Part shown: positions 6,509 through 35,345 of the stretch, piece by piece
How positions within the stretch are numbered: the stretch's first letter is position 1
How the letters are laid out: each line of letters begins with the position of its first letter
NCBI GenBank assembly: GCA_025363655.1
Contig: JANYDK010000135.1
Location: 1 to 35,345 of the forward strand
Direction: 5' to 3'
Source of the DNA: Deltaproteobacteria bacterium
GTDB lineage: Bacteria; Myxococcota_A; Polyangia; Polyangiales; JADJMO01
Length of the DNA: 35,345 nt
The notes under the pieces: generated by a model
The model's database searches: none
Told to the model about the DNA's origin: nothing
Seen by the model: only the letters and a program-made list of their open reading frames with translations
Position numbers and translations under genes: made by a program

Positions 6509-6711
6509 GCCGAGAACCAGCGAGCTGGAATGGATTCGCAACGAGAACCTCCTTCGTGGATGACCCCCCCCCGAAGCAGTCCCCTCCCCACGACACGACA
6601 CGAACTTCCCTCCCACAAGCCCCAGTATTGCACCCTTTCGGTTACGCGCTGGGATCCCTCACATCGCAGTCGCTGGTGCGAAGAAGCGTACCTCCGCTTT
6701 CGCTTCTTCCA

Positions 6712-9243: not shown

Positions 9244-9402
9244 CGAGGGGGCCATACCAAGGGTAGGGTGTCGGACCAATGCCCGAGAACGCTCGACGTA
9301 GGGTCGGTGATCGAATGTCATCGGCACAAAGACCCGCGGCGGTCGCGAAAGTTTCGCGCCGCCGCGTACGTCACTTGCGTCACTCCGATGAAACGATCTG
9401 GA

Positions 9403-20808: not shown

Positions 20809-20861
20809 GTCGGATCGAGCTGCTTCCGCCGCCCGCGCAACTGTGCTCGGCTGCGCCGTCG

Positions 20862-22310: not shown

Positions 22311-22564
22311 GCGCAAATGCGCGCATTTTTCGCAGTCCTTGCGCCCCGGCAGATCTCGGCTATGTTCGTCGCTTCACGAACGTCCTGGCACTCGGCACTC
22401 CTGCTCTCTCTTCTGGGATCGGACAGGGTCGCGCTCTAGACGACGCCACGTGCGGCTGCGGCCTCCGCCGCTGCCCCCCGGTCCGAACCTCACGGCTCGA
22501 TAGGACCTGGGACTAGGAGCGCAATCCTGCGTTCGCCCGAGCCGGATCGAGAAGAGATCGAGTC

Positions 22565-22978
22565 ATGGGTAACCGCCTTTACGTTGGCAACCTTTCGTTT
22601 CACACCACCAAGGACGCGCTCCACGCCGCGTTCTCCAACGGCGGCCGCGAGGTCACCGACGTCCACATCGTGACCGACCGCGACAGCGGCCAGTCGCGCG
22701 GCTTCGGCTTCGTCACGCTGGGCACCGCTCAGCAGGCGCAAGAGGCCATTGCCGAGATGAACGGCGCCATGCTCGACGGTCGTCCCCTCCGCGTGAACGA
22801 AGCCGAAGAGCGTCCCGCTCGCGGCGGCGGCGGCGGTGGTGGCGGCAGCTTCGGTGGCGGCGGTGGCGGTGGCGGTGGCGGCGGCGGCGGTGGCGGCGGT
22901 GGCCGTCGCGGCGGCGGCGGCGGCGGCTTCGGCGGTGGTGGCGGTGGCGGCGGCGGTGGCCGTCGCGAGCGCTACTAG
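22565..22978 (+). CDS. RRM-type glycine-rich RNA-binding protein (RGG/Gly tail)
   Basis: RNP2 LYVGNL, RNP1 RGFGFVTL, then ~55 aa of G/RGG repeats. ~240-nt untranslated leader upstream. Confidence 0.9.
   Translation: MGNRLYVGNLSFHTTKDALHAAFSNGGREVTDVHIVTDRDSGQSRGFGFVTLGTAQQAQEAIAEMNGAMLDGRPLRVNEAEERPARGGGGGGGGSFGGGGGGGGGGGGGGGGGRRGGGGGGFGGGGGGGGGGRRERY
22820..22970. repeat. (GGC/GGT)n glycine-codon microsatellite-like run inside the RBP gene
   Basis: Long GGCGGCGGTGG runs visible. Confidence 0.6.
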
Positions 22979-23152
22979 TCACACCCCGGCTATGGCCGGG
23001 GCCCCCGAGAATTTCACCTTTGGGGTGACTTAGGGGTTTCGGCTCGAGTCGAAGTCGTGAAAGGCGATGCATCGCAAGGTGCGTCGCCCTTCGCTTTTTG
23101 TACGGGGGGCACCGAGTCTTCTCCTGCACGCATTTTTCCTGGAAAACACGAC

Positions 23153-25654: not shown

Positions 25655-26170
25655 TCACGACGTCATGACGTACGGCTCCCAGAGCGAGTGCACGTCGACG
25701 TCGCGGAAGCGGAACGCCACCGCGATCGGCAGCACACGCGGGCGAATCGGCTGCTTGCGCAGCTTCATTCCCGCCTGCTCCGGCGTCCGCGAGCCCTTGC
25801 GGTCGTTGCACGGATAGCAGGAGGTCACGATGTTCTCCCACGCCGTCCTTCCACCGTGCTTGCGCGGCACGACGTGATCGTAGTTGAGCTCACGCGTGAT
25901 CTTCCGCTCACCACAGTACTGGCAGCGGAAGTCGTCGCGCGCGAACACGTTCATGCGCGAGAAGCGAACGACCTGCTTCGCGCTCCGGATCGCCTTCTTC
26001 AGGCGCACGACCGCCGGAGTGCGAATGGAGATGGACGGCGAACGGACGACGTCCTCGTACTCCTCGAGCACCTCGACCTTGTCGAGGTACCACAGGACCA
26101 CGGCGCGCTCCCAAGTGATGACCTTGTGAGGCGCCATCCAAGGCGTCAGCAGCAGGGTTCGCCGGTACAT
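25655..26170 (-). CDS. HNH endonuclease family protein
   Basis: CQYCGERKITRELNYDHVVPRKHGGRTAWENIVTSCYPCNDRKG (CxxC...H-N-H...CxxC). Confidence 0.85.
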   Translation of the reverse strand: MYRRTLLLTPWMAPHKVITWERAVVLWYLDKVEVLEEYEDVVRSPSISIRTPAVVRLKKAIRSAKQVVRFSRMNVFARDDFRCQYCGERKITRELNYDHVVPRKHGGRTAWENIVTSCYPCNDRKGSRTPEQAGMKLRKQPIRPRVLPIAVAFRFRDVDVHSLWEPYVMTS

Positions 26171-26420
26171 GGCTCACCTCCGCCGCCTTCGCCGGCGGAG
26201 ACCGCGCGGCGAACGGACACAGAGCTTCATCTCGCAGTTCATGGGGGACTCCTTTCGGTTTGGGTTCGGGGTTGGGGGTTGGTCGCTAGTTGCTTGGTCG
26301 CGAACGGGTGCGGGGTGAGAGAATCGAGCTCTCCGGGACCTGGGTGTGGGCCAGGCATCGTCACCAGACGAACCCCGCGAGACTGGTTTTTGCGGCCTCG
26401 GCGCACTATCTACGGAGGCG

Positions 26421-27071
26421 ATGTCGGACATTCGAAAGCGGACGCAGGGCCTCGCGCACGAGTTCCTCGCGCGTGGAGACGCGACGGGCTGGTTCGAGGA
26501 GCTCTATCGCCAGGCAGCTGGAGATGCCGGCGGGGTGCCCTGGGCCGACCTTCACGCGAATCCGCATCTCGTCGAATGGGCCGAACGAACGAAGCTCGAT
26601 GGCCATGGGAAGACGGCGCTGGTGGTCGGCTGTGGACTCGGCGACGACGCAGAGCACCTCGCCGCGCGCGGCTTCCACGTCACGGCATTCGACTTGTCGA
26701 AGACCGCCATCGGCTGGTGTCGTGAGCGCCATCCGCAGACACGCGTGAAGTACGTGGTGGCCAATCTGCTTCAGCTTCCCGAGGAGTGGGCCGCCGCGCA
26801 CGACTTCGTCTTCGAGGCGTATACCGTGCAATCGCTGCCGATAGGCCCGTTGCGAGCGCAGGCCATCGCGGCCATCGCCCGTCTCTCGCGCGAAACGCTG
26901 CTGATCGTCGCCCGCGGCCGCGACGACGAGCACGTCCCCGCCGGTCCCCCATGGCCACTCGGCCGCACCGAGGTGGTCGGCTTCGGCCAACATGGATTGA
27001 CCCAAATCCTCTTTGAAGATTTCCAAGACGACGAAGGCACCCGAAGGATTCGCGCCGAGTTCCGCCGATGA
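26421..27071 (+). CDS. Class I SAM-dependent methyltransferase
   Basis: Start at MSDIRKR. Motif I ALVVGCGLGDDAEHLAARGFHVTAFDLS. Confidence 0.75.
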   Translation: MSDIRKRTQGLAHEFLARGDATGWFEELYRQAAGDAGGVPWADLHANPHLVEWAERTKLDGHGKTALVVGCGLGDDAEHLAARGFHVTAFDLSKTAIGWCRERHPQTRVKYVVANLLQLPEEWAAAHDFVFEAYTVQSLPIGPLRAQAIAAIARLSRETLLIVARGRDDEHVPAGPPWPLGRTEVVGFGQHGLTQILFEDFQDDEGTRRIRAEFRR

Positions 27072-27106
27072 CCCTGCGGGGTGTGACGGCGTGACGGAAA
27101 CGTGAG

Positions 27107-27178
27107 TCGGCGTGGAGGGAATCGAACCCCCAAAGTCTCGGGCCCAGACCGAGTGCCCTACCATTGGGCGACACGCCG
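27107..27178 (-). tRNA. tRNA-Pro (C1:G72, A73; anticodon region UGG, loop UCUGGGC with unusual C33)
   Basis: Hand fold: CGGCGUG-UC-GCCC-AAUGGUA-GGGC-A-CUCGG-UCUGGGC-CCGAG-ACUUU-GGGGG-UUCGAUU-CCCUC-CACGCCG-A. Every stem is complementary. The C1-G72/A73 pair is the proline identity set. Confidence 0.7.
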
Positions 27179-27321
27179 TGAGTGACGCACGCGCACATGC
27201 GCATGCCAGTGGCTGTGGAATGAGTCGAACAATCCCGGCTGAGGGTATGAGCCTCACCGTCCTCCGAGGCACAGCCGTGCCGATGCGGCGCGCCTCTCGC
27301 GAGCAGGCGCGCCGCCGGGGT

Positions 27322-28734
27322 TCAGTCCATGCCCTTCATGTTGGCCACCGGATACAGGCGGTGGGCCACACGGGCGATGCCCTCTGCCTCGAGCACGCCG
27401 AGGACCTCGTCGAGATCCTTGTAGACGTGCCCGCACTCGTCGAGCGGGGTGCGCTTGCAGTTGGACGCGATGCCGCGAATCAACGTGCGATCAGGCCCGA
27501 AGACGCGCTCGACGTCGCGCATCTCGGCGTCGATGACCGCCTGACGGGGCGAGAGCTGACGCTTCGCCTCACCACGCGCCATGTGACGTCCCGAGCCGTG
27601 GTTCACCGAGTATCCCGACGCGCGCGCGCCGTCCCCCGCGAAGAGGATCGCCGCGCCGTGGTACATCGAGCCGGGGATGAGGCAGGGGTGTCCCGTCTTC
27701 TCCCAGACCGTGTCCTCGAGCTCGGGATGTCCGGCCGGAAACGCGCGCGTCGCGCCCTTGCGGTGCACGAAGCCACGCTTCTGCGTGCCGTCGGGGAGGG
27801 TGATCGTCTCTTCCTGCACGAGGTTGTGCGAGATCTCGTAGTAGACCTCGGCGTCCCGCTGGAAGACGACGCGCAGAGCTTCCCGCACACCTTCGACGAT
27901 GATGTGACGATTGGCGACTGCGTAGTTGGCGGCGCTGTTGTGATGTGCCCAATACGACTTACCGAGGGGCTCGTCGCTGCGCAGCCACGCATCTTCGCGG
28001 CGCTCACGGCGGAGGCCACGGAGCTTCGCTCCTTCGTAGAAGAAGTGATTCGCCGTCTGCCAACCGTAACCGCGCGAGCCGCAGTGGACCATCACCCAGA
28101 CCTCGGCCGTGTCTCGGTCGACCTGCATCTCGATGAAGTGGTTTCCTCCGCCGACCGAGCCGAGCTGCGGCACGACTTTCTCGCGTGCACGCTCGATGAG
28201 GTCGAGGTCGGTCTCTTCGTCGACGTCGATGTACTGCCGCTCGCAGAGGTCTGCGGAGACGCCGATCGCCTTCGCGCCGTAGCGCAGGATTTCCTCGGCC
28301 TTCTTGTGCGAAAAGCGAGGCATGAGGCGCGGACGATCGGACCCCACGCCGGTGGCGACGCGGAGCTCGACCTCGCGAATGAACCGCTCGCGCGCGGCGA
28401 AGTCGGCGACGTGCTCGGCATGCAGCCCCGGCACCTTCATGTAGAGGACGCCGCAGCTGATGTCGTAGCCCGAGCCCGCCTGGATGATCGTGCCGTCGGT
28501 GACGACGACGCACCCGACGGGGACGCCATAGCCGGCGTGCGCATCAGGCATCATGTAGGCGCCGACGACTCCCTCGTAGGACGCGGCGTTCATGATCTGC
28601 GTCCACATCGACTCTTCCGTACGCTCGTAGAGCAGTTCGGAGAAGAAGGCGTGGGCGTCGACCTTCATCGTGCCCGTTCGTGGCAGCACGTAATGGTTGT
28701 CGGTCAATTTGTGGACTGCGTATTTGAGTGACAT
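27322..28734 (-). CDS. rtcB: RNA-splicing ligase RtcB (3'-phosphate/5'-hydroxyl RNA ligase)
   Basis: Start at MSLKYAVHKL. Conserved RtcB blocks (YMMPDAHAGYGVPVGCVV, GSGYDISCGV, NHGSGRHM). Confidence 0.9.
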   Translation of the reverse strand: MSLKYAVHKLTDNHYVLPRTGTMKVDAHAFFSELLYERTEESMWTQIMNAASYEGVVGAYMMPDAHAGYGVPVGCVVVTDGTIIQAGSGYDISCGVLYMKVPGLHAEHVADFAARERFIREVELRVATGVGSDRPRLMPRFSHKKAEEILRYGAKAIGVSADLCERQYIDVDEETDLDLIERAREKVVPQLGSVGGGNHFIEMQVDRDTAEVWVMVHCGSRGYGWQTANHFFYEGAKLRGLRRERREDAWLRSDEPLGKSYWAHHNSAANYAVANRHIIVEGVREALRVVFQRDAEVYYEISHNLVQEETITLPDGTQKRGFVHRKGATRAFPAGHPELEDTVWEKTGHPCLIPGSMYHGAAILFAGDGARASGYSVNHGSGRHMARGEAKRQLSPRQAVIDAEMRDVERVFGPDRTLIRGIASNCKRTPLDECGHVYKDLDEVLGVLEAEGIARVAHRLYPVANMKGMD

Positions 28735-28832
28735 GGGATTCTTCCCGCGTGCGAGGTCGAACGAATCTTGGACGCTCTCGCGAAAAAGTGCGAGCGCGTC
28801 GGCGTTTCGACCGCGAAATCGTGATCCATCAC

Positions 28833-28864
28833 GCGTGGACCGCGTGGACCGTGTGCGTGGACCG
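28833..28864. repeat. Three direct copies of GCGTGGACCG (spacing 9-13 bp) between rtcB and the upstream structured RNA
   Basis: Direct reading of the sequence. Possible regulator-binding iteron. Function unknown. Confidence 0.5.
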
Positions 28865-28944
28865 TGCGCCCGGAGTCGCACCGGGAGGGCCGTGGATAGA
28901 AGCCACGCTGCCGCTGCGGCACGCACGGAGACCCAAACTGAAAC

Positions 28945-29075
28945 CGTGACGACGAGAGTTTGAGGACCGCTTTCGCTGCTCTACCCGGCTGAGCTACCCC
29001 CCCATAGATGGAGAGGGCCGGATTCGAACCGGCGACAATCGAATTACCAATGGATTCCTCAGAGCATTCGTCACG
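28945..29075 (-). ncRNA. Candidate structured tRNA-mimic ncRNA (Y-RNA-like / permuted tRNA-like module): T-arm, loop-capped acceptor stem and D-arm, enclosed by an 8-bp terminal helix
   Basis: Minus strand 5'->3': CGUGACGA...GCCGG-UUCGAAU-CCGGC-CCUCUCC-A-UCUAU-GGGGGGG-UA-GCUC-AGCCGGGUA-GAGC...UCGUCACG. T-loop and D-arm are tRNA-consensus. The acceptor strands are complementary (two G.U) across a 6-nt loop. The terminal 8-bp helix is perfectly complementary. Confidence 0.55.
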
Positions 29076-29250
29076 TGTCTCGGAGAGCGGCCGAAGTCGC
29101 GGAGCGAGCTTCGGCAATTCGAGGAAGACGGAGGACTCGCACCCCACGCCGCAAGCGACGCGCACTGTTTTCGAAACAGGCTCGATCCTGTGATCGAATC
29201 ATCTTCCGGAGAGAGAGAGAAGCGCGGAGACGAGTGGAAGAGAGACGTTT

Positions 29251-29345
29251 ACAGGCGACGGGAGTCGAACCCGCAACCTCCGGACCACCCGGTGCTCGGA
29301 TGCTCCTCGAGCTGCGCCTACCATGTAGTCCCTCGGACATTCTCC
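29251..29345 (-). ncRNA. Class-II (Ser-like) tRNA-like element / probable tRNA pseudogene with non-pairing acceptor ends
   Basis: 5' part GGAGAAUGUCCGAGGG.. resembles tRNA-Ser. Long variable hairpin CCGG-GUGGU-CCGG. Canonical T-arm GCGGG-UUCGACU-CCCGU. But the 5' GGAGAAU and 3' CGCCUGU cannot form an acceptor stem. The T-arm region is identical over 22 nt to the element at 34603-34624. Confidence 0.4.
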
Positions 29346-29481
29346 GCGTGAAATCTGAAAGGGGCGAACCTGTCCATCTTGCCCGGTGCGCAGGGGCATG
29401 TAACAAGCCCGGTCGATTGTCCGCAACTTCGGTCGCGCTCGCGCCGATGAGTGGGGAAACCCGCAACGATCCGAGGATCTC

Positions 29482-30927
29482 ATGTCCACCGCGCGCTCCG
29501 TCCTGATCGGCATGACCACCGTGGTGCTCCTCGCGACCGCCGCCTGCCGAAACCTCGATTTCGACACCGCGTGCTCGTCCGACCCGACGAAATGCGACGA
29601 CTACGACGCCGGCGGCGATGCTGCCGCCGATGCCACGCTCGACGGGGCCGATACAGGCGACAGTGGCGGCGGTGACTCCGGCGATAGCGCCGTCGATGCC
29701 AGCGGCGACGTCAGAGACGGCTGCGCGCCGATCGCCTGTCCGGCCACTGCGTGCGGCTCCTTGGACGACGGGTGCGGTGGCAAGCTCACGTGTCCCGACT
29801 GCCCGAGCGGCAAGACCTGCGACACCACCACGCACAGCTGTGTCTGCAAGCCGATCACCGCATGTCCGATCGGCCTCGATTGCGGCAAGGTGCCTGATGG
29901 CTGCGGCGGAACGTTCGACTGCCTGGGCTGCACCGGCGGCAAGACCTGCAACACGACCACGAACAAGTGCGAGACGACGTGCGTCCCGGCGACCAGTTGC
30001 CCGACCGGCAAGTGCGGAGACCTCGACAACGGCTGCGGCACCGGCACGCTGACGTGCGGTTGCACCTTGCCGCAAAAGTGCGGAGGCGGCGGCAGCCCTG
30101 GAGTCTGCGGGTGCACGCCAACCGGTTCTTGCGGCGCGCGCGTCTGTGGATCGGTAGCGGATGGTTGCGGAGGTGCCATCAACTGTGGCCCGCTCGGCGG
30201 CGGCTGCGCAAGCGCGACGCCGACCTGCACTGCCGCGGGTGCGTGCGTCTGCACCGCCACGTCATGCCCTCTTGGGCAGACCTGCAACGGCTCGGGCGTC
30301 TGTGTCTGCTCGCCGTCCTGGTCCTGCACGGGCAAGTGCGGCACCATCACCGATACCTGTGGTGGGACGCATGATTGTGGCGGTTGCACGGCTCCGGCAA
30401 CGTGCGGTGGTGGGGGCAGTGGAACGGCGAATGTCTGCAGTGTCTGCAGTTGGACGAGCACGTATCCGCCTGCTGGGGGGTGCCCGAGTGGCGACAATTA
30501 TTGGCAATGTTGGACACCGCCGGCCCTCGGTGGCCGAACGGCCGACTTCAACGTGCTCACGCTCTGCGGCGATGCCGTCATCCAGGACACCAAGACCGGC
30601 CTGATGTGGGCGCAAAACGAGGAGACACGCACGACTTGGGCTAATGCGAAAACGGAATGCACGGCCTCTCGCCGTGCCGGCTTCTCCGATTGGAGAGTGC
30701 CGACGCCCGTCGAGCTGCAGTCGATTGTCGACTATCTCAAGACCACAGCGCCGGCAATCGACAGCAAGTTTCAAGGGGTCGTCGTTGGTTCCGCGCCGAC
30801 GAATGATGACACGTGGTCGTCCACGCTCGATCCGTTCTCGGCGAACGGATGGGCCGTCGACTTCTATAGTGGCACCGCGGGCGCTGGCGACACGGGAAAT
30901 CCCTTTGCAGTTCGTTGCGTGCGTTGA
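29482..30927 (+). CDS. Secreted lipoprotein: Myxococcus-type cysteine-rich repeats (x~9) fused to a C-terminal DUF1566 (Lcl-C-terminal-like) domain
   Basis: Signal/lipobox LLATAAC. Repeats C-x4-CG-x3-DGCGG-x3-C-x2-C. C-terminal TGLMW...W..A...C.......GFSDWRVPT..EL.SIVDY.... Confidence 0.75.
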   Translation: MSTARSVLIGMTTVVLLATAACRNLDFDTACSSDPTKCDDYDAGGDAAADATLDGADTGDSGGGDSGDSAVDASGDVRDGCAPIACPATACGSLDDGCGGKLTCPDCPSGKTCDTTTHSCVCKPITACPIGLDCGKVPDGCGGTFDCLGCTGGKTCNTTTNKCETTCVPATSCPTGKCGDLDNGCGTGTLTCGCTLPQKCGGGGSPGVCGCTPTGSCGARVCGSVADGCGGAINCGPLGGGCASATPTCTAAGACVCTATSCPLGQTCNGSGVCVCSPSWSCTGKCGTITDTCGGTHDCGGCTAPATCGGGGSGTANVCSVCSWTSTYPPAGGCPSGDNYWQCWTPPALGGRTADFNVLTLCGDAVIQDTKTGLMWAQNEETRTTWANAKTECTASRRAGFSDWRVPTPVELQSIVDYLKTTAPAIDSKFQGVVVGSAPTNDDTWSSTLDPFSANGWAVDFYSGTAGAGDTGNPFAVRCVR

Positions 30928-31026
30928 GGAAGGCCGCCCATGCGACAATCGAGTTTCAACGACAAATCAGACACGCTTCCTGCCCGCAAAACACCACCCA
31001 ATCCACGTCATGAAAGCGCCAAGACT

Positions 31027-31500
31027 ATGCCGCTGTTCCAACGTATCGTGACCGTCGCCGCGTGCGCCATCGTGGCCGCGACTTGGATGGCCCGCGCGCC
31101 TCGCGCGGATGCCCCGGCGGGCCGCTACACTGCCACGACCGTCGGTGGTACGGCCGCTGTCAAAGACAATGTCACTGGCCTCACATGGATGCGGAACGAG
31201 CTGGTCGGAACCTTCGACTGGGCCGGTGCGAGCACAGGCTGCACGGGAGGATGGAGGCTTCCCAGCGTGATCGAGCTGAACGGAATTGTCGACTACGTGC
31301 ACACCGGACCGCCCCCGAAGATCGATCGCACGTTCTTTCAAGGGCAGACGGCAGGTTCCGTTCCGACGAGCGGCGAAATATGGTCGTCGACTGCCGCGGC
31401 ATTGAGGTCGGGAAACGCGTGGTACATAGATTTCAAGAACGGCACCATCGACCGCTATCCCGTAGTCGGCATCCCAATCGGCGTTCGCTGTGTGCGCTGA
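31027..31500 (+). CDS. Secreted stand-alone DUF1566 domain protein (paralog of the C-terminus of the upstream gene)
   Basis: Signal peptide MPLFQRIVTVAACAIVAATWMARA. VTGLTWMRNE..., GGWRLPSVIELNGIVDY. Same C-terminal motif (..GVRCVR) as the 29482 gene. Confidence 0.75.
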   Translation: MPLFQRIVTVAACAIVAATWMARAPRADAPAGRYTATTVGGTAAVKDNVTGLTWMRNELVGTFDWAGASTGCTGGWRLPSVIELNGIVDYVHTGPPPKIDRTFFQGQTAGSVPTSGEIWSSTAAALRSGNAWYIDFKNGTIDRYPVVGIPIGVRCVR

Positions 31501-31586
31501 GCACGACCCGAGGCGGGAATTGGGAAAACACGAAGGGGCCCGCGCACGAAGCGCGGACCCCTCCGAGGGAATGGCGTCGTGCTTCG

Positions 31587-32621
31587 TTACTTGAGAATGC
31601 AGCCGCTGACCGCCACATCACCACTGGAGGCGAGCTTGAGGCTGTCGCCGCAGAGGTAGAAGTGGAGCCCGTCGGTCGAATTGCCGTACGAGAAAGCCCA
31701 GTAGTAGCCGACTCCGAAGGAGTAGTCGGAGAGACCGATGTCGACCTTGGCGGCGCCGCCACCCGGATCGAAGGTGACCGTCTTGATGTGGATTTCGCCG
31801 CTCGCTGCCGTGGTGGTGAACGGCAGGGATACGTACGACTTGAACGGCACCGAGGAGCCGGTGCTCAGCGTGTAGACCGTGCCGTCGAGCGCGGTGAGCG
31901 TGACGGAGAGCGGGCCGTTGTAGCCGTTGAAGAACTGCAGGGTCGGCACGGTCGCCGCGGCGGTCGGGTCCGGGTCGTGGATGGAGAGGAGGTTGTACGG
32001 CTTCGACGCCAGAGTGACGTTGCCGTAGATGATCGCGGTGTTGTAGCCGACCTGGAAGGTCGCCTTGTCGTCCGTGATGTTGACGTTGTTGCCAGGGCCC
32101 GTGCCGATCGTGAATTTCGCGCTCTCGAGGCAGCTGCTGCCCTTGGCGACAAGACGAATTCGCGCGGTGGTGTGCGTAGAGTCGAGGTCGAGCTTGAAGT
32201 ACTCGGAGACCTCGGGCGAGGAGAATGAGCCGCTGAACGCGTTGGCGATCGGGCCCTTGTACACGTCCGTCGCGCTCGCGGCGGTCACGCCGTCCCACGG
32301 CAGGTAGCAGAGGTCGTAGTCTGTGCCCGTCGTGAAGTCGCTCGTCGCGACGACGAAGCGTACGTAATACGCAGTGCTGTCCGGCGGCGGGACCCACGTG
32401 CTGGTGTCGGTGCCCGGAGTGCCGGTGTCCGCACCCGGCGTGGTGTCGGGCGTGCCGGTGTCGGTCCCAGGCGTGCCCGTGTCGGTGCCGGGCGTGCCGG
32501 TGTCGGTATTGACGGTGCCGGTGTCGGACGCGTCAGCCGTGTCCTCGGTCTTGACCGTGCAACCAGCCGCGATGACGAGCATCGCCGCAAACGCAGAAAT
32601 ATACGAAAGCCGTGATTTCAT
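31587..32621 (-). CDS. Hypothetical lipoprotein with a TGTPGTD tandem repeat linker
   Basis: MKSRLSYISAFAAMLVIAAGC (lipobox). 5x (D)TGTPGTD. Beta-rich C-terminal domain. No family recognised. Confidence 0.55.
   Translation of the reverse strand: MKSRLSYISAFAAMLVIAAGCTVKTEDTADASDTGTVNTDTGTPGTDTGTPGTDTGTPDTTPGADTGTPGTDTSTWVPPPDSTAYYVRFVVATSDFTTGTDYDLCYLPWDGVTAASATDVYKGPIANAFSGSFSSPEVSEYFKLDLDSTHTTARIRLVAKGSSCLESAKFTIGTGPGNNVNITDDKATFQVGYNTAIIYGNVTLASKPYNLLSIHDPDPTAAATVPTLQFFNGYNGPLSVTLTALDGTVYTLSTGSSVPFKSYVSLPFTTTAASGEIHIKTVTFDPGGGAAKVDIGLSDYSFGVGYYWAFSYGNSTDGLHFYLCGDSLKLASSGDVAVSGCILK
32395..32530. repeat. 15-nt tandem repeats (GGCGTGCCGGTGTCG-like) encoding TGTPG units
   Basis: Direct reading of the sequence. 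Confidence 0.7.
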
Positions 32622-33068
32622 GAGTCCTCCATTGGAGCAAGCATCGGCGATGCTATGTCACAGGCAGGTGACTTGTCTCTCCTCATCGTCGCCACCTCCG
32701 CTCGATTCGCCTCGTGCTTGCGAGTGCGAGGTGCGCTCGGGTTCGACGAGCGGCCAGCGACTGTCATCCAGTCAAAGACGCACGAATTCACAGGAAAACC
32801 GTGGCATTTTGGCGTGGATCAACGACAGGGACGGACCTGCAAACGGTTTCGTTCCGTCGTGGGCGTCGGTGATTGTCGTTGCGCACTGTTTGCGCTTGGG
32901 TGCGTCGGCCACGAATCGAACGTGGACGTCCTCCTTATCAGGGAGAGCAGGGGAACCACCCCGTACCGACGCGAGGTTCAGGTCGAAGAACGTTTGAAGA
33001 CCGTTTGAAGAATTGCGAAGAGAGATCCCGGAACGTCCGCTCGAGAGCGTCGGTCCGGGATCTCACCC

Positions 33069-34190
33069 TCAACTGCCTCGGCCGTCGGGCTTCGGCGCGG
33101 CTTCGGTGAGCAGGCCCACCGGCAGCAGCGACTTCAGCCCGTCCGCTCCGACGACGACGCGCACCTCGTGGATGCGCGACGCGATCTCCTTCAGCGACTC
33201 CAGCTCCTTGAGTCGCAGCAGGATCGGATGCTCGGCCATGACCTTGGCGGTGTTGGCGAGCGAGCGCGTCGCCGCCGTCTCCTCCCTACGGAGAATGACG
33301 TTCGCCGCCGCTTCCTTCTCGGCCTCGATGACGCGGTTGAGGAGCGTCTTCATCTCCCCGGGGAGCACCACGTCCTTTACGCCGACGCGTTCGACACGAA
33401 CACCGAAGCGCGCGGCCTTCGGCGTCGCGTCCTCGTGGAGGAAACGCGTCATCGTGTCACGACCGGCGAGGAGCTCGTCGAGCGTGACGCTGGCCATGAA
33501 GTCACGCGCCGCGAGCTGCACGATGAGGTAGAGCGCGTCCTTCACGCTCGCCACCGCGTGCGCCGAGAGCGCCGCGTCGACGATCGCGAATTCGACCGTC
33601 AGCGACAGCCGCAGCGTCACCTTGTCGCGGGTCATCAGCTCCTGACCCGTGAGCGCGAGCTGCGTCAGCCGGAGATCGATCGTCTGCACGTCGACCTTCG
33701 CCTCGGGGTGCGACCAGAGCGCGTATCGACCCGGGCCGAGCGTCCGCGAGAGACGACCCTGCACGTACTCGAGTCCACGCTCGTATTCGCGAATCGTCAC
33801 ATCGACGTACTGATCGCGCGGGAGCACCGCGATCAGCTCGGCCGTCAGCGCCGGCAGCGGCTCCTTCACCGAGAGGACGACGACGCGAATCGTCTCGTCG
33901 ACCTTCCAGTAACGGTGCGTTCCCGGCTTGAGGAAGAGGACGGGCTTGCCGTCTCGGTAGACGAACGCACGCTCTTCCGACGAGAGCGCGACCTCGCCGT
34001 ACCACTCCGTCGGGAGGACCGCGCGAATCGCCGCGGACGTCTCGAACACGAGCAGCTCGGTCGAGAACCGCAGCTCCGTGAAGTGGAATCCCCACACCGT
34101 GTGGCTACCCGGTCCGAATGCACGGAGAGGGAGGCCGTCTCGGAAGAGCACGACACGTTCGTCGAGCTTCACACGAACCGACTTCATCAT
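33069..34190 (-). CDS. SPFH/Band-7 (stomatin/prohibitin-like) domain protein
   Basis: C-terminal SPFH region with coiled-coil (..VRVERVGVKDVVLPGEMKTLLNRVIEAEKEAAANVILRREETAATRSLAN..). Confidence 0.7.
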   Translation of the reverse strand: MMKSVRVKLDERVVLFRDGLPLRAFGPGSHTVWGFHFTELRFSTELLVFETSAAIRAVLPTEWYGEVALSSEERAFVYRDGKPVLFLKPGTHRYWKVDETIRVVVLSVKEPLPALTAELIAVLPRDQYVDVTIREYERGLEYVQGRLSRTLGPGRYALWSHPEAKVDVQTIDLRLTQLALTGQELMTRDKVTLRLSLTVEFAIVDAALSAHAVASVKDALYLIVQLAARDFMASVTLDELLAGRDTMTRFLHEDATPKAARFGVRVERVGVKDVVLPGEMKTLLNRVIEAEKEAAANVILRREETAATRSLANTAKVMAEHPILLRLKELESLKEIASRIHEVRVVVGADGLKSLLPVGLLTEAAPKPDGRGS

Positions 34191-34547
34191 GATGTTTTCG
34201 AGCCTCCGAAACCGAAACCGTCGGTCGTGCGGGCGAGGTCATCGCAGAGTGAGAGAGAGAGGGAACGAAGCGAAAAAATAGGGTCGACCGAAGGAGCGAT
34301 CCGCGGCCGCTGGCAGCACCCGACGACGAGCGAGGGGAGCCACGGGAAGCCGAGGACGTCATGCGCGCTCGTTCGCGGGACTGTCGAGCAGGGAGTGCCG
34401 GCGGTCTGTCACCCAAACGGGTGACGAGATGGCCGACGTCCGCGCCCGGAGGCGTCGCGTCGGGGAAGTGCAATGACGGTTCACCGCACGAGCGAGCTCG
34501 TCGGTGCGTGAGGACCGCGTCCTTCGGTGGACCGGTGCGAGGAGGGA

Positions 34548-34631
34548 GACAGATGAAAAGTCTGTTGCCTTACCATTAGGCTACGACCGCGGATTTTTGG
34601 TGCAGTCGACGGGAGTCGAACCCGCAATTCC
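34548..34631 (-). ncRNA. Circularly permuted tRNA-like element: T-arm + acceptor 3' strand + ACCA, 7-nt linker, acceptor 5' strand + D-arm + anticodon-like arm (anticodon position UUU, C37). G3.U70 and A73 present.
   Basis: Minus 5'->3': GCGGG-UUCGACU-CCCGU-CGACUGC-A-CCA-AAAAUCC-GCGGUCG-UA-GCCU-AAUGGUA-AGGC-A-ACAGA-CUUUUCA-UCUGU. The acceptor strands pair perfectly (7 bp, including G3.U70). No T-arm follows the anticodon arm, so it is not a conventional tRNA in either direction. Confidence 0.5.
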
Positions 34632-34750
34632 ATTTCCCGAAGAAGGTCGGGAGGCCCGCTACCGAGCAGACAGACGCGTTCGTAAACGACGTACGGACAC
34701 CGAACGAAGAAGTCTCTCGACCAACGAACGGCGCGCCGGCGCATGAGCCA

Positions 34751-34776
34751 CGATGTCTCATGGGAGTCGAACCCAC
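34751..34776 (-). other. Isolated tRNA T-arm/3'-end fragment (GUGGG-UUCGACU-CCCAU-GAGACAU) 2 nt downstream of tRNA-Tyr
   Basis: T-loop consensus without any 5' partner. Confidence 0.4.
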
Positions 34777-34778
34777 GG

Positions 34779-34859
34779 TGGAGAGTGGAGGAATCGAACC
34801 TCGTAGCCTAGAGGCGCCCCGTTTACAGCGGCGCTAGGGTCCCAGCCCAGACACTCTCC
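34779..34859 (-). tRNA. tRNA-Tyr (GUA), class II
   Basis: GGAGAGU..perfect 7-8 bp acceptor with ACUCUCC-A. Anticodon loop CUGUAAA identical to bacterial tRNA-Tyr. Long variable arm. T-loop UUCGAUU. Confidence 0.8.
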
Positions 34860-34997
34860 GAAATACGAAACAGGCGTGAAAACGAGCCAAACGGAGGAGG
34901 ACGGGCGAGTTGCACGCCATGCCCTGAAGGCACGTCCCGGGTAGCGGCCGGGCCTCGTCACTACGACGAGCTCATCCTCCAGAAAAGTGACACCAGT

Positions 34998-35079
34998 GCT
35001 CGAGGGGGGAGTCGAACCCCCATGCCCGAAGGGCCGCCGCTTCTGAAACGGGTGTGTATGCCAAATTCACCACTCGAGC
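34998..35079 (-). tRNA. tRNA-Leu (CAG), class II
   Basis: GCUCGAG/CUCGAGC acceptor, A73. D-arm GUG-AAUUUGGCAUA-CAC. Anticodon loop UUCAGAA. Variable hairpin GCCC-UUCG-GGGC. T-arm GGGGG-UUCGACU-CCCCC. Confidence 0.75.
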
Positions 35080-35105
35080 GTGAGTAGCGGAGAGTCTAGT
35101 TTTCG

Positions 35106-35160
35106 TGCGCAGTGAGGGAGTCGAACCCTCTCGATTTCCATGTCGAGGAAACCAGGTCGC
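35106..35160 (-). other. tRNA-like fragment: canonical T-arm (GAGGG-UUCGACU-CCCUC) preceded by a hairpin CUCGA-CAUGGAAA-UCGAG, with no matching acceptor 5' strand
   Basis: Hand fold. The acceptor complement was searched for on both sides and not found. Confidence 0.35.
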
Positions 35161-35345
35161 CAGACCGTCACCGCGCGCCGCGAAATGTGCGAAAAGTACG
35201 AAAAAGGGCTCTCCGAGAGGTTTGATGGAAGCGCAGCGGCGTAGGCCGAGCATTGCGGCACGAGAAACCGCGGCGATCGCGACGTAGGAAGCGGTGACGA
35301 CGATGGTGATGGAACGCGCACGATCGAAGGGCTACCTCGGGGGTT

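What the first reader, a model, noticed from the sequence alone, without database searches (positions are those of the whole stretch)
34548..34631. Second, independent circularly permuted tRNA-like element with alanine-type identity features
On the minus strand the order is T-arm (GCGGG-UUCGACU-CCCGU), acceptor 3' strand CGACUGC, discriminator A, an encoded CCA, a 7-nt linker AAAAUCC, the exactly complementary acceptor 5' strand GCGGUCG (7/7 including a G3.U70 wobble), UA, a D-arm (GCCU-AAUGGUA-AGGC) and an anticodon-like arm ACAGA-CUUUUCA-UCUGU. After that arm there is no T-arm, so this is not a normal tRNA. The 3' half precedes the 5' half, as in the rtcB-proximal element. Two unrelated sequences showing perfect cross-linker acceptor complementarity argues for a real structural class rather than chance. 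G3.U70 + A73 + a genomically encoded CCA is the alanine identity set (as in tmRNA). C37 next to a UUU anticodon is abnormal for tRNA-Lys. Possibilities: a second Y-RNA/tRNA-mimic module; a permuted tRNA gene needing ligation at the 43/44 junction (RtcB is encoded 6 kb away); or a recombination scar at an integration site.
Basis: partly seen in the sequence, partly recalled or inferred. Interest (0 to 1): 0.8.

Follow-up and report, generated by a model that had tools for sequence, protein, structure and literature searches.

The report
Band-7-linked permuted tRNA mimic (YrlA-type)
The element is a real, conserved tRNA look-alike whose two halves are encoded in swapped order, sitting in front of an SPFH/Band-7 gene inside an RNA-repair and tRNA-array island; it belongs to an already described class of RNAs (Y-RNA-like YrlA, and the "band-7-associated tRNA") and is not a broken or novel tRNA gene.

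Summary
On the minus strand, 34549-34630 encodes: variable-loop residues, T-arm, acceptor 3' strand, an 11-nt loop starting ACCA, a 7/7 complementary acceptor 5' strand, U8-A9, D-arm and an anticodon-like hairpin.

It is not chance and not a scar. The same permuted module lies 345-590 nt (rarely up to 1.5 kb) upstream of the orthologous SPFH/Band-7 gene in 60 of 66 Polyangia genomes. All seven acceptor pairs show compensatory changes. The 15:48 Levitt pair covaries (G:C 33, A:U 8). U8, A14 and the T-loop are almost invariant.

A covariance model built from these modules scores the window's canonical YrlA, next to RtcB, as well as the finding (64 vs 68.6 bits). In Labilithrix luteola the order is RtcR, RtcB, Ro60/Rsr, tRNA, YrlA, YrlA, tRNA, this module, SPFH, HNH.

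This fits the "band-7-associated tRNA / YrlA next to Band-7" arrangement attributed to Burroughs & Aravind (2016).

The alanine identity set, the CCA and the UUU "anticodon" are not conserved, so a functional permuted tRNA is very unlikely.

Verdict: new member of a known, experimentally unvalidated kind. Its function (tRNA-shaped partner of the SPFH/RtcB repair module) is inferred only.

The parts
34626..34630 (-). Variable-loop equivalent (GAAUU). Its last base, U 34626, is the position-48 partner of A15.
   Evidence: Sequence. The 15:48 Levitt pair covaries across 51 orthologues (G:C 33, A:U 8, U:A 3). The window has A15:U48.
34609..34625 (-). T-arm GCGGG-UUCGACU-CCCGU
   Evidence: The stem is 99.6% paired, with 4 of 5 pairs changed on both sides. 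The T-loop UUCRANU is invariant in 51 sequences.
34602..34608 (-). Acceptor-stem 3' strand CGACUGC (positions 66-72)
   Evidence: Pairs 7/7 with 34584-34590. Across 51 orthologues it is 97.2% paired and all 7 pairs show double-sided changes.
34591..34601 (-). Loop closing the acceptor stem, ACCAAAAAUCC (A73, CCA, 7-nt spacer)
   Evidence: In orthologues the loop is 1-55 nt. 27/51 have 5 nt or fewer. 14 of the 24 loops of 6 nt or more start NCC, and 8 start NCCA.
34584..34590 (-). Acceptor-stem 5' strand GCGGUCG (positions 1-7, G3.U70)
34567..34583 (-). U8-A9 and D-arm GCCU-AAUGGUA-AGGC
   Evidence: U8 in 49/51, A14 in 51/51, D-stem 99% paired with all 4 pairs covarying, G18 G19 present.
34549..34565 (-). 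Anticodon-like hairpin ACAGA-CUUUUCA-UCUGU (local closure of the anticodon stem)
   Evidence: The local hairpin is 78.8% paired family-wide. In 20 orthologues the same 5' strand instead pairs perfectly with a 5-mer upstream of the variable loop (73.7% paired family-wide, all 5 pairs covary). The window has only the local version. Loop sequences are not conserved.
34760..34776 (-). Orphan T-arm hairpin GUGGGUUCGACUCCCAU, directly after the ACC of tRNA-Tyr. It is a conserved upstream part of the same RNA region.
   Evidence: Seen. Aligned and paired in 11 relatives. T-arm-only hits of model R1 lie 130-190 nt upstream of the module in many loci. A T-loop motif is present upstream in 32/51.
34694..34738 (-). 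Conserved helix CCGGCGCGCCG ... GGUGUCCG between the two T-arms (tentative)
   Evidence: RNAalifold helix at columns 110-125/175-192 of A2. The GYGUYCG motif is present in 34/51 loci, mostly 68-97 nt upstream of the module, against 0.7 per kb background.
34516..34527 (-). 5' strand (CCGAAGGACGCG) of a long-range helix that encloses about 220 nt in the window (tentative)
   Evidence: RNAalifold on 11 relatives: 9 pairs, several with AU-to-GC double changes. Complementary to CGCUCCUUCGG at 34288-34298.
34288..34298 (-). 3' strand (CGCUCCUUCGG) of the long-range helix. It is followed by a U-run (34273-34278) and a CU-rich tract.
   Evidence: U-rich tracts follow this helix in many orthologues. 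No canonical terminator was called.
34203..34225 (-). Conserved hairpin ACCGA-CGGUU-UCGGU followed by the Shine-Dalgarno GGAGG
   Evidence: The motif CCG(G/A)CGG-N2-3-YCGG lies 24-40 nt before the start codon in most of the 19 of 51 loci that carry it, against 0.03 per kb background. The stem covaries (GCCGG/CCGGC, GCCGA/UCGGC, ACCGA/UCGGU).
33069..34190 (-). SPFH/Band-7 (slipin-like) gene, 373 aa; the constant downstream partner of the module
   Evidence: Pfam Band_7, 3.8e-27. 75 related loci. The module lies upstream in 60 of 66.
34780..35176 (-). Upstream tRNA array (Val 35105-35176, Leu 34996-35079, Tyr 34780-34856), same strand
   Evidence: ARAGORN. Arrays of varying content precede the module in many orthologous loci, but not in all.
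28943..29074 (-).
   Evidence: Rfam RF02553: 62.4 bits, E = 1.2e-12, full length. Model R1 scores it at 64 bits.
27322..28926 (-). RtcB RNA ligase ORF. The true start is probably further downstream, because tRNA-Arg 28858-28928 overlaps the ORF's 5' end.
   Evidence: Pfam RtcB, 1.1e-86, residues 110-532; ARAGORN.

Best explanation
The element is the tRNA-like core of a Band-7/SPFH-associated non-coding RNA. It is a YrlA-type tRNA mimic: a circularly permuted tRNA in which the acceptor stem is closed by a loop and the RNA chain enters and leaves on the anticodon/variable-loop side.

Shown here:
- It keeps every nucleotide and helix needed for the tRNA L-shape.
- It has been conserved with compensatory changes in at least 60 Polyangia genomes, always just upstream of, and on the same strand as, one SPFH/Band-7 gene.
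- That gene lies in tRNA-array / HNH / RtcB / Ro60 (Rsr) / YrlA neighbourhoods.
- The module is embedded in a longer stretch, conserved in fixed register up to the SPFH ribosome-binding site.

Inferred:
- It arose from a tandem pair of tRNA genes. Traces of this are the retained NCCA, the duplicated anticodon-stem 3' strand, and D-arm types that differ between clades.
- It is co-transcribed with the upstream tRNAs and with SPFH.
- It works through its shape, presenting a tRNA elbow and acceptor/T stack without a chargeable end. That would make it the cognate RNA partner (cofactor, decoy or tether) of the SPFH scaffold and the RtcB repair machinery, as proposed for Ro60 with Y RNAs.
- In the window's copy, the 7-bp stem plus the ACCA-containing 11-nt loop make RNase P cleavage and 3' trimming plausible, as demonstrated for the 7-bp-stem YrlA of M. 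smegmatis. This cannot be a general property of the family.
For: - Sequence and fold.
- Rfam: the finding matches the tRNA-like core of YrlA (model positions 29-81, 26.4 bits, E = 0.03). Orthologues score 37-42 bits.
- Orthologues: 51 were collected by pattern. Model R1 finds the module upstream of SPFH in 60/66 loci plus the window (68.6 bits) and scores the canonical YrlA at 64 bits. Opposite-strand hits reach at most 18.5 bits.
- Covariation: acceptor 97.2% paired with 7/7 pairs changed on both sides; score 0.70 against 0.22 for shuffles and 0.05-0.14 for slid controls.
- Helices that were not used for selection also covary.
- Tertiary-interaction signature: U8, A14, T-loop, and the 15:48 pair switching between G:C and A:U.
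- Context: in L002 the order is RtcR, RtcB, TROVE/Ro60, tRNA, YrlA, YrlA, tRNA, module, SPFH, HNH. Rsr is also upstream in L025, L061 and L075. The HNH gene is linked in 26 loci.
- Conserved motifs in fixed register from upstream of the module to the SD. No terminator was called between the module and SPFH.
[quoted passage not shown] YrlA crystal structure, and the statement that a 'band 7-associated tRNA' lies next to Band-7 and RtcB while YrlA is occasionally adjacent to the Band-7 protein (bioRxiv 10.1101/312249). tRNA L-arrays linked to an HNH gene and co-regulated with rtcB (PMC8421152). An SPFH gene inside the Pseudomonas rtc locus (PMC13086221).
Against: - There are no expression, end-mapping or binding data. 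The transcript, its ends and its partners are all inferred.
- The Rfam YrlA score is far below the gathering threshold, and only the core matches.
- No Ro60-binding stem was recognised, and there is no GNCGAAN0-1G motif 5' of the module. A similar motif 3' of it is not enriched (7/51 seen, about 5 expected).
- Rsr is within 10 kb in only 4 of 75 loci, and RtcB in 7 of the loci plus the window. The repair link is therefore looser than the SPFH link.
- The primary description of b7a-tRNA (Burroughs & Aravind 2016) could not be read. Equivalence with that class rests on a secondary citation and on my memory of its abstract.
- The 51 aligned sequences were selected partly by requiring the pairing. 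The counter-arguments are the conserved position, the strand control and the helices that were not used for selection.
Confidence: 0.72

Rival explanations
1. It is purely a cis-acting leader element of the SPFH mRNA, working like a riboswitch or attenuator. The tRNA-shaped domain would be a sensor whose anticodon-stem 5' strand toggles between an upstream and a downstream partner. That change would alter the long-range helix / U-tract and the pre-SD hairpin, and so SPFH expression. No free RNA product would be involved.
For: - The distance to the SPFH start is constant (345-590 nt), and motifs are conserved in register down to the SD.
- Array-less loci have a promoter-like TTGCGY-N17-CARGTT upstream of the whole region and none seen between the module and SPFH.
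- There are two mutually exclusive, covarying partners for the anticodon-stem 5' strand. 29/51 loci have at least 4/5 pairs for both.
- A long-range helix is followed by a U-run.
- No canonical terminator was called.
Against: - The window itself has only the local hairpin (upstream partner 2/5), so the switch cannot be general.
- Duplicated partner strands are also what a tandem-tRNA origin would leave behind.
- No ligand or factor is known.
- The same module type occurs as a free-standing YrlA.
Confidence: 0.15
2. It is simply another Ro60(Rsr)-bound Y RNA, a YrlA paralogue. Its adjacency to SPFH would be incidental operon packing.
For: - It is the same module type as YrlA.
- In L002, L025 and L061 it lies 0.6-1.2 kb downstream of rsr on the same strand. 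This meets the positional criterion of Chen et al. 2014 (PMC4201824).
- L025 gives a full-length, though weak, YrlA alignment (41.8 bits).
Against: - Most loci (71 of 75) have no rsr within the sequence held.
- The Ro60-type motif is not enriched and sits on the wrong side of the module.
- The flanks do not form the YrlA closing stem.
- Linkage to SPFH is far tighter (60/66) than linkage to rsr.
Confidence: 0.08
3. It is a circularly permuted tRNA gene. The transcript would be circularised or trans-ligated at the 43/44 junction, for example by RtcB, and opened at the acceptor end to give a working tRNA(Lys/Ala).
For: - The window copy has all four arms, a 7-bp acceptor stem, A73, an encoded CCA and G3:U70.
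- RtcB is encoded 5.6 kb away.
Against: - In 27/51 orthologues the acceptor stem is capped by 1-5 nt (for example GAGA, GCAA, UUU), leaving no room for a discriminator and CCA.
- 'Anticodons' differ freely among close relatives (UUU, CGA, UGU, GAA, AUU, GAC and others). In 14 loci only the flank pairing gives a perfect 5-bp anticodon stem, and no perfect local hairpin is present.
- C37 is abnormal.
- Permuted tRNA genes are known only in a few eukaryotic algae and one archaeal lineage, where processing uses the splicing endonuclease, which bacteria lack (review PMC3978253 listed; the processing detail is from my own knowledge).
Confidence: 0.02
4. It is a non-functional remnant: two decayed neighbouring tRNA genes, or an integration/recombination scar in the tRNA array.
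For: - The array contains degenerate pieces. One is an orphan T-arm at 34760-34776. Four of the six ARAGORN tRNAs fail Rfam's threshold.
- The ACCA-plus-spacer looks like a tRNA 3' end followed by an intergenic spacer.
- Dimeric tRNAs are known false positives for YrlA searches (PMC4201824).
Against: - It is conserved at the same place relative to SPFH in 60/66 genomes whose SPFH proteins are only 44-75% identical. This includes loci with no tRNA array at all.
- Compensatory changes occur at every acceptor pair.
- The Levitt pair covaries.
Confidence: 0.02
5. It is a two-piece, tmRNA-like molecule. RNase P would split the loop, the upstream piece would be alanylated at its CCA end, and the downstream piece would carry a message.
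For: - The gene order (T-arm, acceptor 3' strand, CCA, spacer, acceptor 5' strand) is the order seen in permuted ssrA genes.
- G3:U70 + A73 + CCA are present in the window.
- The L061 orthologue weakly hits the permuted cyano_tmRNA model over exactly this part (27.4 bits against a gathering score of 70).
- G3:U70 is unusually frequent in the family (16/51).
Against: - ARAGORN and Rfam find no tmRNA here.
- A complete D-stem and an anticodon arm are present, unlike tmRNA.
- The full alanine set occurs in only 3/51, and closed short loops in 27/51.
- No tag reading frame or pseudoknots were identified.
Confidence: 0.01

Closest known systems
YrlA (Y RNA-like; Rfam RF02553; Chen et al. 2014, PMC4201824; structure in Wang et al. 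2018, bioRxiv 10.1101/312249)
   Same: - The order is the same: variable loop, T-arm, closed acceptor stem-loop, D-arm.
- The tRNA tertiary signature is the same, including the covarying 15:48 pair, the argument Chen et al. used.
- The genomic company is the same (RtcB, Ro60/Rsr, tRNAs).
- The 7-bp acceptor stem matches the RNase P-cleaved M. smegmatis YrlA.
- My model of the SPFH-linked modules scores the window's canonical YrlA at 64 bits.
   Different: - No Ro60-binding closing stem or 5' GNCGAAN0-1G motif was recognised.
- The Rfam score is only 26 bits, for the core alone.
- In the window and in about half of the orthologues a complete local anticodon hairpin is present, so the chain ends leave at the variable-loop position rather than through an open anticodon stem.
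- It is tightly linked to an SPFH gene rather than to rsr.
- It is embedded in a conserved stretch of about 600-700 nt.
[quoted passage not shown]
   Same: - It is a tRNA-like non-coding RNA encoded next to a Band-7/SPFH gene in RtcB repair loci.
- That source notes that b7a-tRNA and YrlA swap partners: b7a-tRNA next to Rsr, and YrlA next to Band-7. This is the situation seen here (L002, L025, L061).
- It has not been validated experimentally.
   Different: - The citing paper describes b7a-tRNA as 'strongly resembling an authentic tRNA'. I could not read the primary paper, so I do not know whether it is permuted or whether Polyangia were included.
- A Planctomycete relative (L071) has an ordinary-order tRNA-like sequence before its SPFH.
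- An E. coli slipin locus has a T-arm followed by a closed 7-bp hairpin.
Circularly permuted tRNA genes (Cyanidioschyzon merolae and other algae; review PMC3978253)
   Same: The 3' half is encoded before the 5' half, and the acceptor strands are joined by a short intervening sequence.
   Different: - Those genes give mature, decoding tRNAs with conserved anticodons, through circularisation and RNase P/Z opening.
- Here the loops are often too short to be opened, the anticodons are not conserved, and bacteria lack that processing pathway.
Two-piece (permuted) tmRNA of alpha-proteobacteria and cyanobacteria
   Same: - The order is T-arm, acceptor 3' strand, CCA, spacer, acceptor 5' strand.
- The G3:U70/A73/CCA alanine set is present in the window copy.
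   Different: - tmRNA has no D-stem and no anticodon arm.
- tmRNA has a tag ORF and pseudoknots.
- tmRNA has an invariant G3:U70.
- None of these holds for this family.

Membership tests
YrlA (RF02553) | tRNA-like core in the order variable loop, T-arm, closed acceptor stem-loop, D-arm, with the tRNA tertiary-interaction nucleotides | tested here: met
   Rfam aligns the finding to YrlA positions 29-81. R1 scores the canonical YrlA and the finding alike.
YrlA (RF02553) | Reaches Rfam's gathering score (69 bits) over the full model | tested here: not met
   26.4 bits, E = 0.03, core only. Orthologues score 29.5-41.8 bits. Even the window's canonical YrlA scores 62.4 bits, so the model is tight for this clade.
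YrlA (RF02553) | 5' and 3' ends form the Ro60-binding stem, with GNCGAAN0-1G near the 5' end | tested here: not met
   No such motif or closing stem lies 5' of the module in the window. A CCGAAGG-type motif lies 3' of it and is not enriched family-wide (7/51 against about 5 expected).
YrlA (RF02553) | Encoded within 4 kb of the Ro60 orthologue (rsr), on the same strand | tested here: inconclusive
   No TROVE gene is in the window, but the window ends 169 nt upstream of the tRNA array. The criterion is met in L002, L025 and L061 and not in most other loci.
YrlA (RF02553) | Bound and stabilised by Rsr; modified by TruB/DusA | not testable with these tools
   Needs immunoprecipitation and modification mapping.
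Band-7-associated tRNA-like RNA (b7a-tRNA) | tRNA-like ncRNA encoded adjacent to a Band-7/SPFH gene | tested here: met
   The module lies 359 nt upstream of the SPFH start in the window, and upstream of SPFH in 60/66 related loci.
Band-7-associated tRNA-like RNA (b7a-tRNA) | Lies in an RtcB RNA-repair neighbourhood | tested here: met
   Window: RtcB, YrlA, tRNAs and HNH lie within 9 kb. In L002, RtcR, RtcB and Rsr are upstream. RtcB is within 10 kb in 7 related loci as well as in the window.
Band-7-associated tRNA-like RNA (b7a-tRNA) | Sequence/structure consensus as defined by its authors | not testable with these tools
   The primary paper (PMC5062991) is not held, and there is no Rfam family for it.
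Ordinary tRNA gene | Contiguous cloverleaf (acceptor 5' strand, D, anticodon, variable, T, acceptor 3' strand) detected by tRNA finders | tested here: not met
   ARAGORN finds none. Rfam tRNA gives 24.8 bits against 29 needed, with the T-arm missing.
Circularly permuted tRNA gene | Orthologues keep an openable acceptor end and a conserved anticodon, so that a mature decoding tRNA results | tested here: not met
   Loops are 5 nt or fewer in 27/51. Anticodon-loop sequences are unconserved. In 14 loci only the flank pairing gives a perfect anticodon stem.
Two-piece tmRNA | tmRNA model match, invariant G3:U70, tRNA-like domain without D-stem or anticodon arm, tag ORF | tested here: not met
   ARAGORN and Rfam give no tmRNA here. 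G3:U70 occurs in 16/51. A full D-arm and anticodon arm are present. A tag ORF was not searched for.

The most novel reading that the evidence does not exclude
The Band-7-associated RNA of Polyangia may not be a small free Y-like RNA. It could instead be an ornate structured leader of about 600-700 nt, built from two tandem permuted tRNA-like units. The first would be degenerate: the orphan T-arm plus a long insertion. In this reading the well-kept unit acts as a switch. Its anticodon-stem 5' strand alternates between an upstream and a downstream partner, possibly after nicking by, or binding of, tRNA-damage factors. That would couple SPFH synthesis to the state of the tRNA pool, making it a tRNA-mimic sensor acting in cis within an RNA-repair regulon.
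Probability: 0.12. Interest if true: 0.75.

Novelty: new member of a known kind. Interest (0 to 1): 0.45.

Why it matters
YrlA-type tRNA mimics and the predicted band-7-associated tRNA are proposed RNA cofactors of bacterial RNA-repair systems (RtcB with Ro60, or with SPFH scaffolds). Their function is still unknown, and according to the 2018 source the band-7-associated RNA has never been validated.

This window and its 60 orthologues give strong comparative support that an SPFH-linked tRNA mimic is real and under selection for the tRNA L-shape:
- all seven acceptor pairs show compensatory changes;
- the Levitt pair covaries;
- tertiary positions are almost invariant.

The orthologues also show natural variation that could guide experiments:
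- acceptor loops from 1 to 55 nt;
- retained NCCA in some copies;
- frequent G3:U70;
- two ways of closing the anticodon stem.

A cultivable strain, Labilithrix luteola DSM 27648, carries the whole set in one locus: RtcR, RtcB, Rsr, two YrlAs, this RNA, SPFH and HNH.

There is a practical point for annotation as well. The element should not be called a tRNA pseudogene, and gene callers tend to extend the SPFH ORF over the structured leader.

Tried and rejected
- Phage origin: blastn of the region against 50,697 phage records gave nothing. The gene content (secretin, two-component sensors, thiolase and others) and the relatives show a Polyangia chromosome.
- Exact-protein look-up of the SPFH gene gave only one 2.7-kb contig.
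- Thermodynamic significance of the fold is weak (z = -1.5 and -1.65), so I did not use it as evidence.
- A Ro60-binding motif next to the module looked promising by eye (GACGAAGG, GGUCCGAAGG), but it is not enriched over background.
- A family-wide search for the long-range helix with RNAduplex was too slow and produced long spurious duplexes (timed out). The helix therefore rests only on RNAalifold of 11 close relatives.
- Sigma-54 promoters: checked by eye upstream of the array-less Polyangia loci and not found. A TTGCGY-N17-CARGTT pair was seen instead.
- PADLOC and NCBIfam gave no informative names for the SPFH protein or the 344-aa neighbour.
- The primary b7a-tRNA paper could not be obtained by DOI, PMC id or PubMed id.
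- The 489-aa 'long' SPFH homologues are not a different clade. They are gene calls extended over the leader.
- More distant SPFH relatives (38-41% identity, L067-L070) show no T-loop motif upstream.
Full report
**1. The observation.**
The minus strand of 34549-34630 reads as follows:
- GAAUU
- GCGGG-UUCGACU-CCCGU (T-arm)
- CGACUGC (acceptor 3' strand)
- ACCAAAAAUCC (loop)
- GCGGUCG (acceptor 5' strand; 7/7 pairs with one G.U at 3:70)
- UA
- GCCU-AAUGGUA-AGGC (D-arm)
- A
- ACAGA-CUUUUCA-UCUGU (anticodon-like hairpin)

No T-arm follows. The isolated sequence folds into exactly these four helices, but the energy z-score is only -1.5, so folding energy is not evidence. ARAGORN calls six tRNAs in the window and none here, and finds no tmRNA. 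Rfam at gathering thresholds reports only two tRNAs. The description is therefore accurate. Whether it means anything had to come from comparison.

**2. What Rfam says.**
A permissive Rfam scan of 26000-35345 gave these results:
- A full-length YrlA (RF02553) match at 28943-29074, at 62.4 bits with E = 1.2e-12. This is just under the gathering score of 69.
- A weak second YrlA match at 29221-29347.
- A match of the finding to the tRNA-like core of the same model (positions 29-81, 34567-34627), at 26.4 bits with E = 0.03.

YrlA is the known bacterial Y-RNA-like family. Its effector domain is a circularly permuted tRNA with a closed acceptor stem (Chen et al. 2014, PMC4201824; crystal structure in bioRxiv 10.1101/312249).

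**3. Where the window comes from, and the local context.**
The window is a 65% G+C bacterial chromosome segment. The region was searched against phage records and gave no match.

On the minus strand the order is:
- tRNA-Val, tRNA-Leu, tRNA-Tyr
- an orphan T-arm hairpin
- the finding
- an SPFH/Band-7 gene (33069-34190)
- a 344-aa ORF with no family match
- tRNA-Ile
- the weak YrlA-like match, then YrlA
- tRNA-Arg
- RtcB
- tRNA-Pro
- an HNH endonuclease

A DbpA-type DEAD-box helicase and RNase II lie beyond. No TROVE/Ro60 gene is in the window, but the window ends 169 nt beyond the first tRNA.

**4. Orthologous loci.**
Searching one genome per species for relatives of the SPFH protein returned 75 loci. 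Nearly all are Polyangia (Labilithrix, Polyangiaceae, Sandaracinaceae, Kofleriaceae), at 38-75% protein identity.

- A strict pattern scan found the arrangement on the SPFH strand, 345-590 nt upstream of SPFH, in most loci. The pattern was a T-arm, 7 nt, a gap of 1-45 nt, then a perfectly complementary 7 nt. Only 3 hits fell on the opposite strands across 1.3 Mb.
- A covariance model (R1) built from 51 of these sequences finds a hit of at least 45 bits within 1.5 kb upstream of SPFH in 60 of the 66 loci L002-L066 and L074.
- Of the six loci without such a hit, two (L030, L057) hold too little upstream sequence, L009 and L045 have only weak hits, L055 has none, and L021 has a strong hit 3.6 kb upstream.
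- The window scores 68.6 bits. The window's canonical YrlA scores 64 bits with the same model. Opposite-strand hits never exceed 18.5 bits.
- tRNA arrays of varying content precede the module in many loci but are absent in others. The constant partner is therefore the SPFH gene, not the array.

**5. Covariation.**
On the 51-sequence alignment:

| Helix | Cells paired | Pairs changed on both sides |
|---|---|---|
| T-stem | 99.6% | 4 of 5 |
| Acceptor stem (across the loop) | 97.2% | 7 of 7 |
| D-stem | 99% | 4 of 4 |

The covariation score is 0.70, against 0.22 for column shuffles and 0.05-0.14 when partners are slid by 1-3 columns.

These three helices were partly required when I picked the sequences, which inflates the percentage paired. 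It does not create double-sided changes at a conserved genomic position. Two features that played no part in the selection behave the same way:
- The anticodon-stem 5' strand pairs with a local 3' strand. This is 78.8% paired, with 4 of 5 pairs covarying.
- Alternatively it pairs with a 5-mer just upstream of the variable loop. This is 73.7% paired, with 5 of 5 pairs covarying.

The tRNA tertiary signature is intact:
- U8 in 49/51
- A14 in 51/51
- T-loop UUCRANU invariant
- G18 and G19 present
- the Levitt pair 15:48 switches between G:C (33) and A:U (8); the window is A15:U48

This is the argument Chen et al. used for YrlA. The module is therefore under selection to fold as a tRNA L-shape. 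The 'scar' reading is excluded.

**6. What is not conserved.**
- The loop closing the acceptor stem ranges from 1 to 55 nt. In 27/51 it is 5 nt or fewer (UUU, AAC, GAGA, GCAA and others), so no discriminator-CCA end can be made.
- Among the 24 longer loops, 14 begin NCC and 8 begin NCCA. This looks like the fossil, or the retained function, of a tRNA 3' end.
- G3:U70 occurs in 16/51. That is about four times the G.U frequency at the other acceptor pairs, and it also occurs in closed-loop copies. I cannot explain this.
- The full alanine set is limited to WIN, L054 and L060.
- Anticodon-loop sequences differ freely (UUU, CGA, UGU, GAA, AUU, GAC, GUC and others). 20 loci have a perfect upstream partner, 24 a perfect local hairpin, and 6 of these have both. 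The permutation point is therefore in the anticodon loop in some species, as in YrlA, and in the variable region in others, including the window.

These facts rule out a conserved decoding or alanine-accepting tRNA, and with it the RtcB-ligated permuted-tRNA idea. They fit an origin from a tandem tRNA pair, whose remaining traces are:
- the anticodon-stem 3' strand, variable loop, T-arm and acceptor 3' strand with NCCA of the first copy;
- the spacer;
- the 5' part of the second copy.

**7. The repair-island context.**
In Labilithrix luteola (L002), Pfam and Rfam give this order:
- RtcR (divergent)
- RtcB
- Ro60/TROVE (Rsr)
- tRNA
- YrlA (65 bits)
- YrlA (67 bits)
- tRNA
- orphan T-arm
- this module (YrlA core, 37 bits)
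- SPFH
- HNH

Rsr is also just upstream in L025, L061 and L075. RtcB is within 10 kb in seven loci plus the window. The HNH gene is linked in 26 loci. L025 and L061 carry arrays of dozens of tRNAs.

The literature fits this picture:
- Long tRNA arrays carry a conserved HNH gene and are co-regulated with rtcB under translational stress (PMC8421152).
- A Pseudomonas SPFH gene lies inside the rtc locus (PMC13086221).
- Wang et al. [quoted passage not shown] They add that b7a-tRNA is occasionally adjacent to Rsr and YrlA adjacent to the Band-7 protein, and that this RNA has not been validated experimentally.

I could not obtain the 2016 paper. From memory, its abstract names SPFH/Band-7 modules and 'a novel tRNA-like molecule' as cognate scaffold and RNA. 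The finding is thus a member of a kind already predicted.

**8. A larger conserved RNA.**
The module is not isolated. Across relatives I find the following:
- An orphan T-arm directly after the NCC of the preceding tRNA (window 34760-34776).
- A helix with a GYGUYCG motif, mostly about 70-95 nt upstream of the module (34/51 loci).
- A long-range helix that starts about 20 nt after the anticodon-like hairpin and closes about 220-280 nt. In the window it is 34516-34527 with 34288-34298. AU-to-GC double changes are seen in 11 relatives. A U-run or CU-rich tract follows it.
- A CCAUCG...GGCGACCG motif at +158 to +190 nt (14 loci, against a background of 0.015 per kb).
- A covarying hairpin CCGGCGG-NN-CCGG, 24-40 nt before the start codon in most of the 19 loci that carry it. 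In the window it is 34211-34225, followed by GGAGG.

Array-less loci have a promoter-like TTGCGY-N17-CARGTT upstream of the whole region. No canonical terminator is called between the module and SPFH in the window. Gene callers sometimes extend the SPFH ORF by about 116 codons over this leader. In the window an in-frame stop prevents that. These points suggest co-transcription with SPFH. Whether the module is then released as a small RNA is unknown.

**9. Mechanism.**

Shown:
- The RNA has a tRNA-shaped fold with a closed acceptor end, kept by selection.
- It has an obligate genomic partnership with one SPFH gene.
- It recurs in the company of RtcB, Rsr, YrlA, HNH and tRNA arrays.

Inferred:
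- By analogy with Y RNA and Ro60, and with the Burroughs & Aravind proposal, the RNA is the cognate partner of the SPFH scaffold and the RtcB system. It would offer a tRNA elbow and acceptor/T stack to a tRNA-binding factor, as tether, decoy or sensor.
- The window copy has a 7-bp stem and an 11-nt loop beginning ACCA. It is the type that RNase P cleaved, and that received CCA, in M. smegmatis YrlA. Cleavage would give a two-piece RNA. Half of the orthologues cannot do this, so it is at most a lineage-specific elaboration.
- A cis-regulatory reading, with alternative anticodon-stem partners, the long-range helix and the pre-SD hairpin acting together, remains possible. I give it about 15%.

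**10. Verdict.**
The alanine/permuted-tRNA emphasis is not supported. The element is a new member, with some variant features, of the YrlA / band-7-associated tRNA-like class. It is scientifically useful mainly as strong comparative validation of an RNA class that is still unvalidated experimentally, and as a pointer to a tractable organism.

Noticed in passing
window 28943-29074 (-) and 29221-29347 (-): A canonical YrlA (62.4 bits, just under Rfam's gathering score of 69) lies upstream of tRNA-Arg and RtcB. A second, weak YrlA-like match (23 bits) lies 150 nt further upstream. The second contains the string GCGGGTTCGACTCCCGTCG (about 29257-29275), which is identical to the finding's T-arm plus 2 nt. 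This suggests a recent copy or gene conversion. L002 also has two tandem YrlAs.
   Followed up: partly
window 34760-34776 (-): An orphan T-arm hairpin GUGGGUUCGACUCCCAU abuts the ACC of tRNA-Tyr. The same arrangement (tRNA-NCC directly followed by a T-arm hairpin) is conserved in many orthologous loci. The following bases may pair about 80-110 nt downstream, so it could be a second, degenerate permuted tRNA-like unit.
   Followed up: partly
window 34203-34298 (-): Between the module and the SPFH start lie several conserved pieces: the 3' strand of a long-range helix (34288-34298), a U6 run (34273-34278), a CU-rich tract, and a covarying hairpin ACCGA-CGGUU-UCGGU immediately before the GGAGG Shine-Dalgarno. 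Their role (terminator-like, ribosome standby site or protein site) is unknown.
   Followed up: partly
window tRNAs 28858-28928, 32899-32972, 34780-34856, 35105-35176 (-): Four of the six ARAGORN tRNAs (Arg-tct, Ile-gat, Tyr-gta, Val-gac) do not reach Rfam's tRNA gathering score. The island's tRNAs are atypical, as reported for long tRNA arrays.
   Followed up: no
window 25655-26170 (-); L002 11171-11707: A 171-aa HNH endonuclease is linked to the SPFH gene in 26 related loci, either up- or downstream on the same strand. This parallels the HNH gene conserved next to cyanobacterial long tRNA arrays (PMC8421152). It shows weak similarity to the HNH domains of IscB/Cas9d and PtuB.
   Followed up: partly
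window 20760-25015 (+): RNase II (RNB) and a DbpA-type DEAD-box helicase are encoded next to the island. With RtcB, YrlA and the tRNAs, they form a cluster of RNA-metabolism genes.
   Followed up: no
L005 about 9260-9300, L011 about 9150-9190, L012 about 9360-9400: Loci without a tRNA array share a promoter-like TTGCGY-N17-CARGTT about 110 nt upstream of the orphan T-arm. It is followed by a degenerate tRNA that ARAGORN finds only at a lowered threshold.
   Followed up: no
L077 and L078 (proteins P0117, P0016): Public gene calls of 488-499 aa for this SPFH family are about 116 codons too long. The extension runs over the G+C-rich structured leader, and the tRNA-like module lies just upstream of the called start.
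   Followed up: yes
L079 (E. coli STEC639, CP061233.1) 6686-6904: A 35%-identical slipin gene in E. coli, followed by a nucleotidyltransferase gene, is preceded by a sigma-54-type promoter (TGGCAC-N5-TCGCA). After the promoter comes a leader containing a T-arm (AUGGGUUCGAUUCCCAC) followed by a closed 7-bp hairpin (AUUCAUU-CCUGA-AAUGAAU). This is the same T-arm-then-closed-stem order. Neither Rfam nor ARAGORN matches it.
   Followed up: partly
L071 9368-9440 (Planctomycetota MAG): A more distant SPFH gene (about 40% identity) is preceded, about 340 nt upstream, by a tRNA-like sequence in ordinary order (D-arm, anticodon arm, variable loop, T-arm). It has no obvious acceptor stem, and ARAGORN does not call it.
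   Followed up: no
alignment A1 (51 orthologues of the finding): G3:U70 occurs in 16/51 modules, about four times the G.U frequency of the other acceptor pairs. It is found in several sub-lineages and also where the acceptor stem is capped by a tetraloop. This is unexplained; it could reflect tRNA-Ala ancestry or an AlaRS contact.
   Followed up: partly
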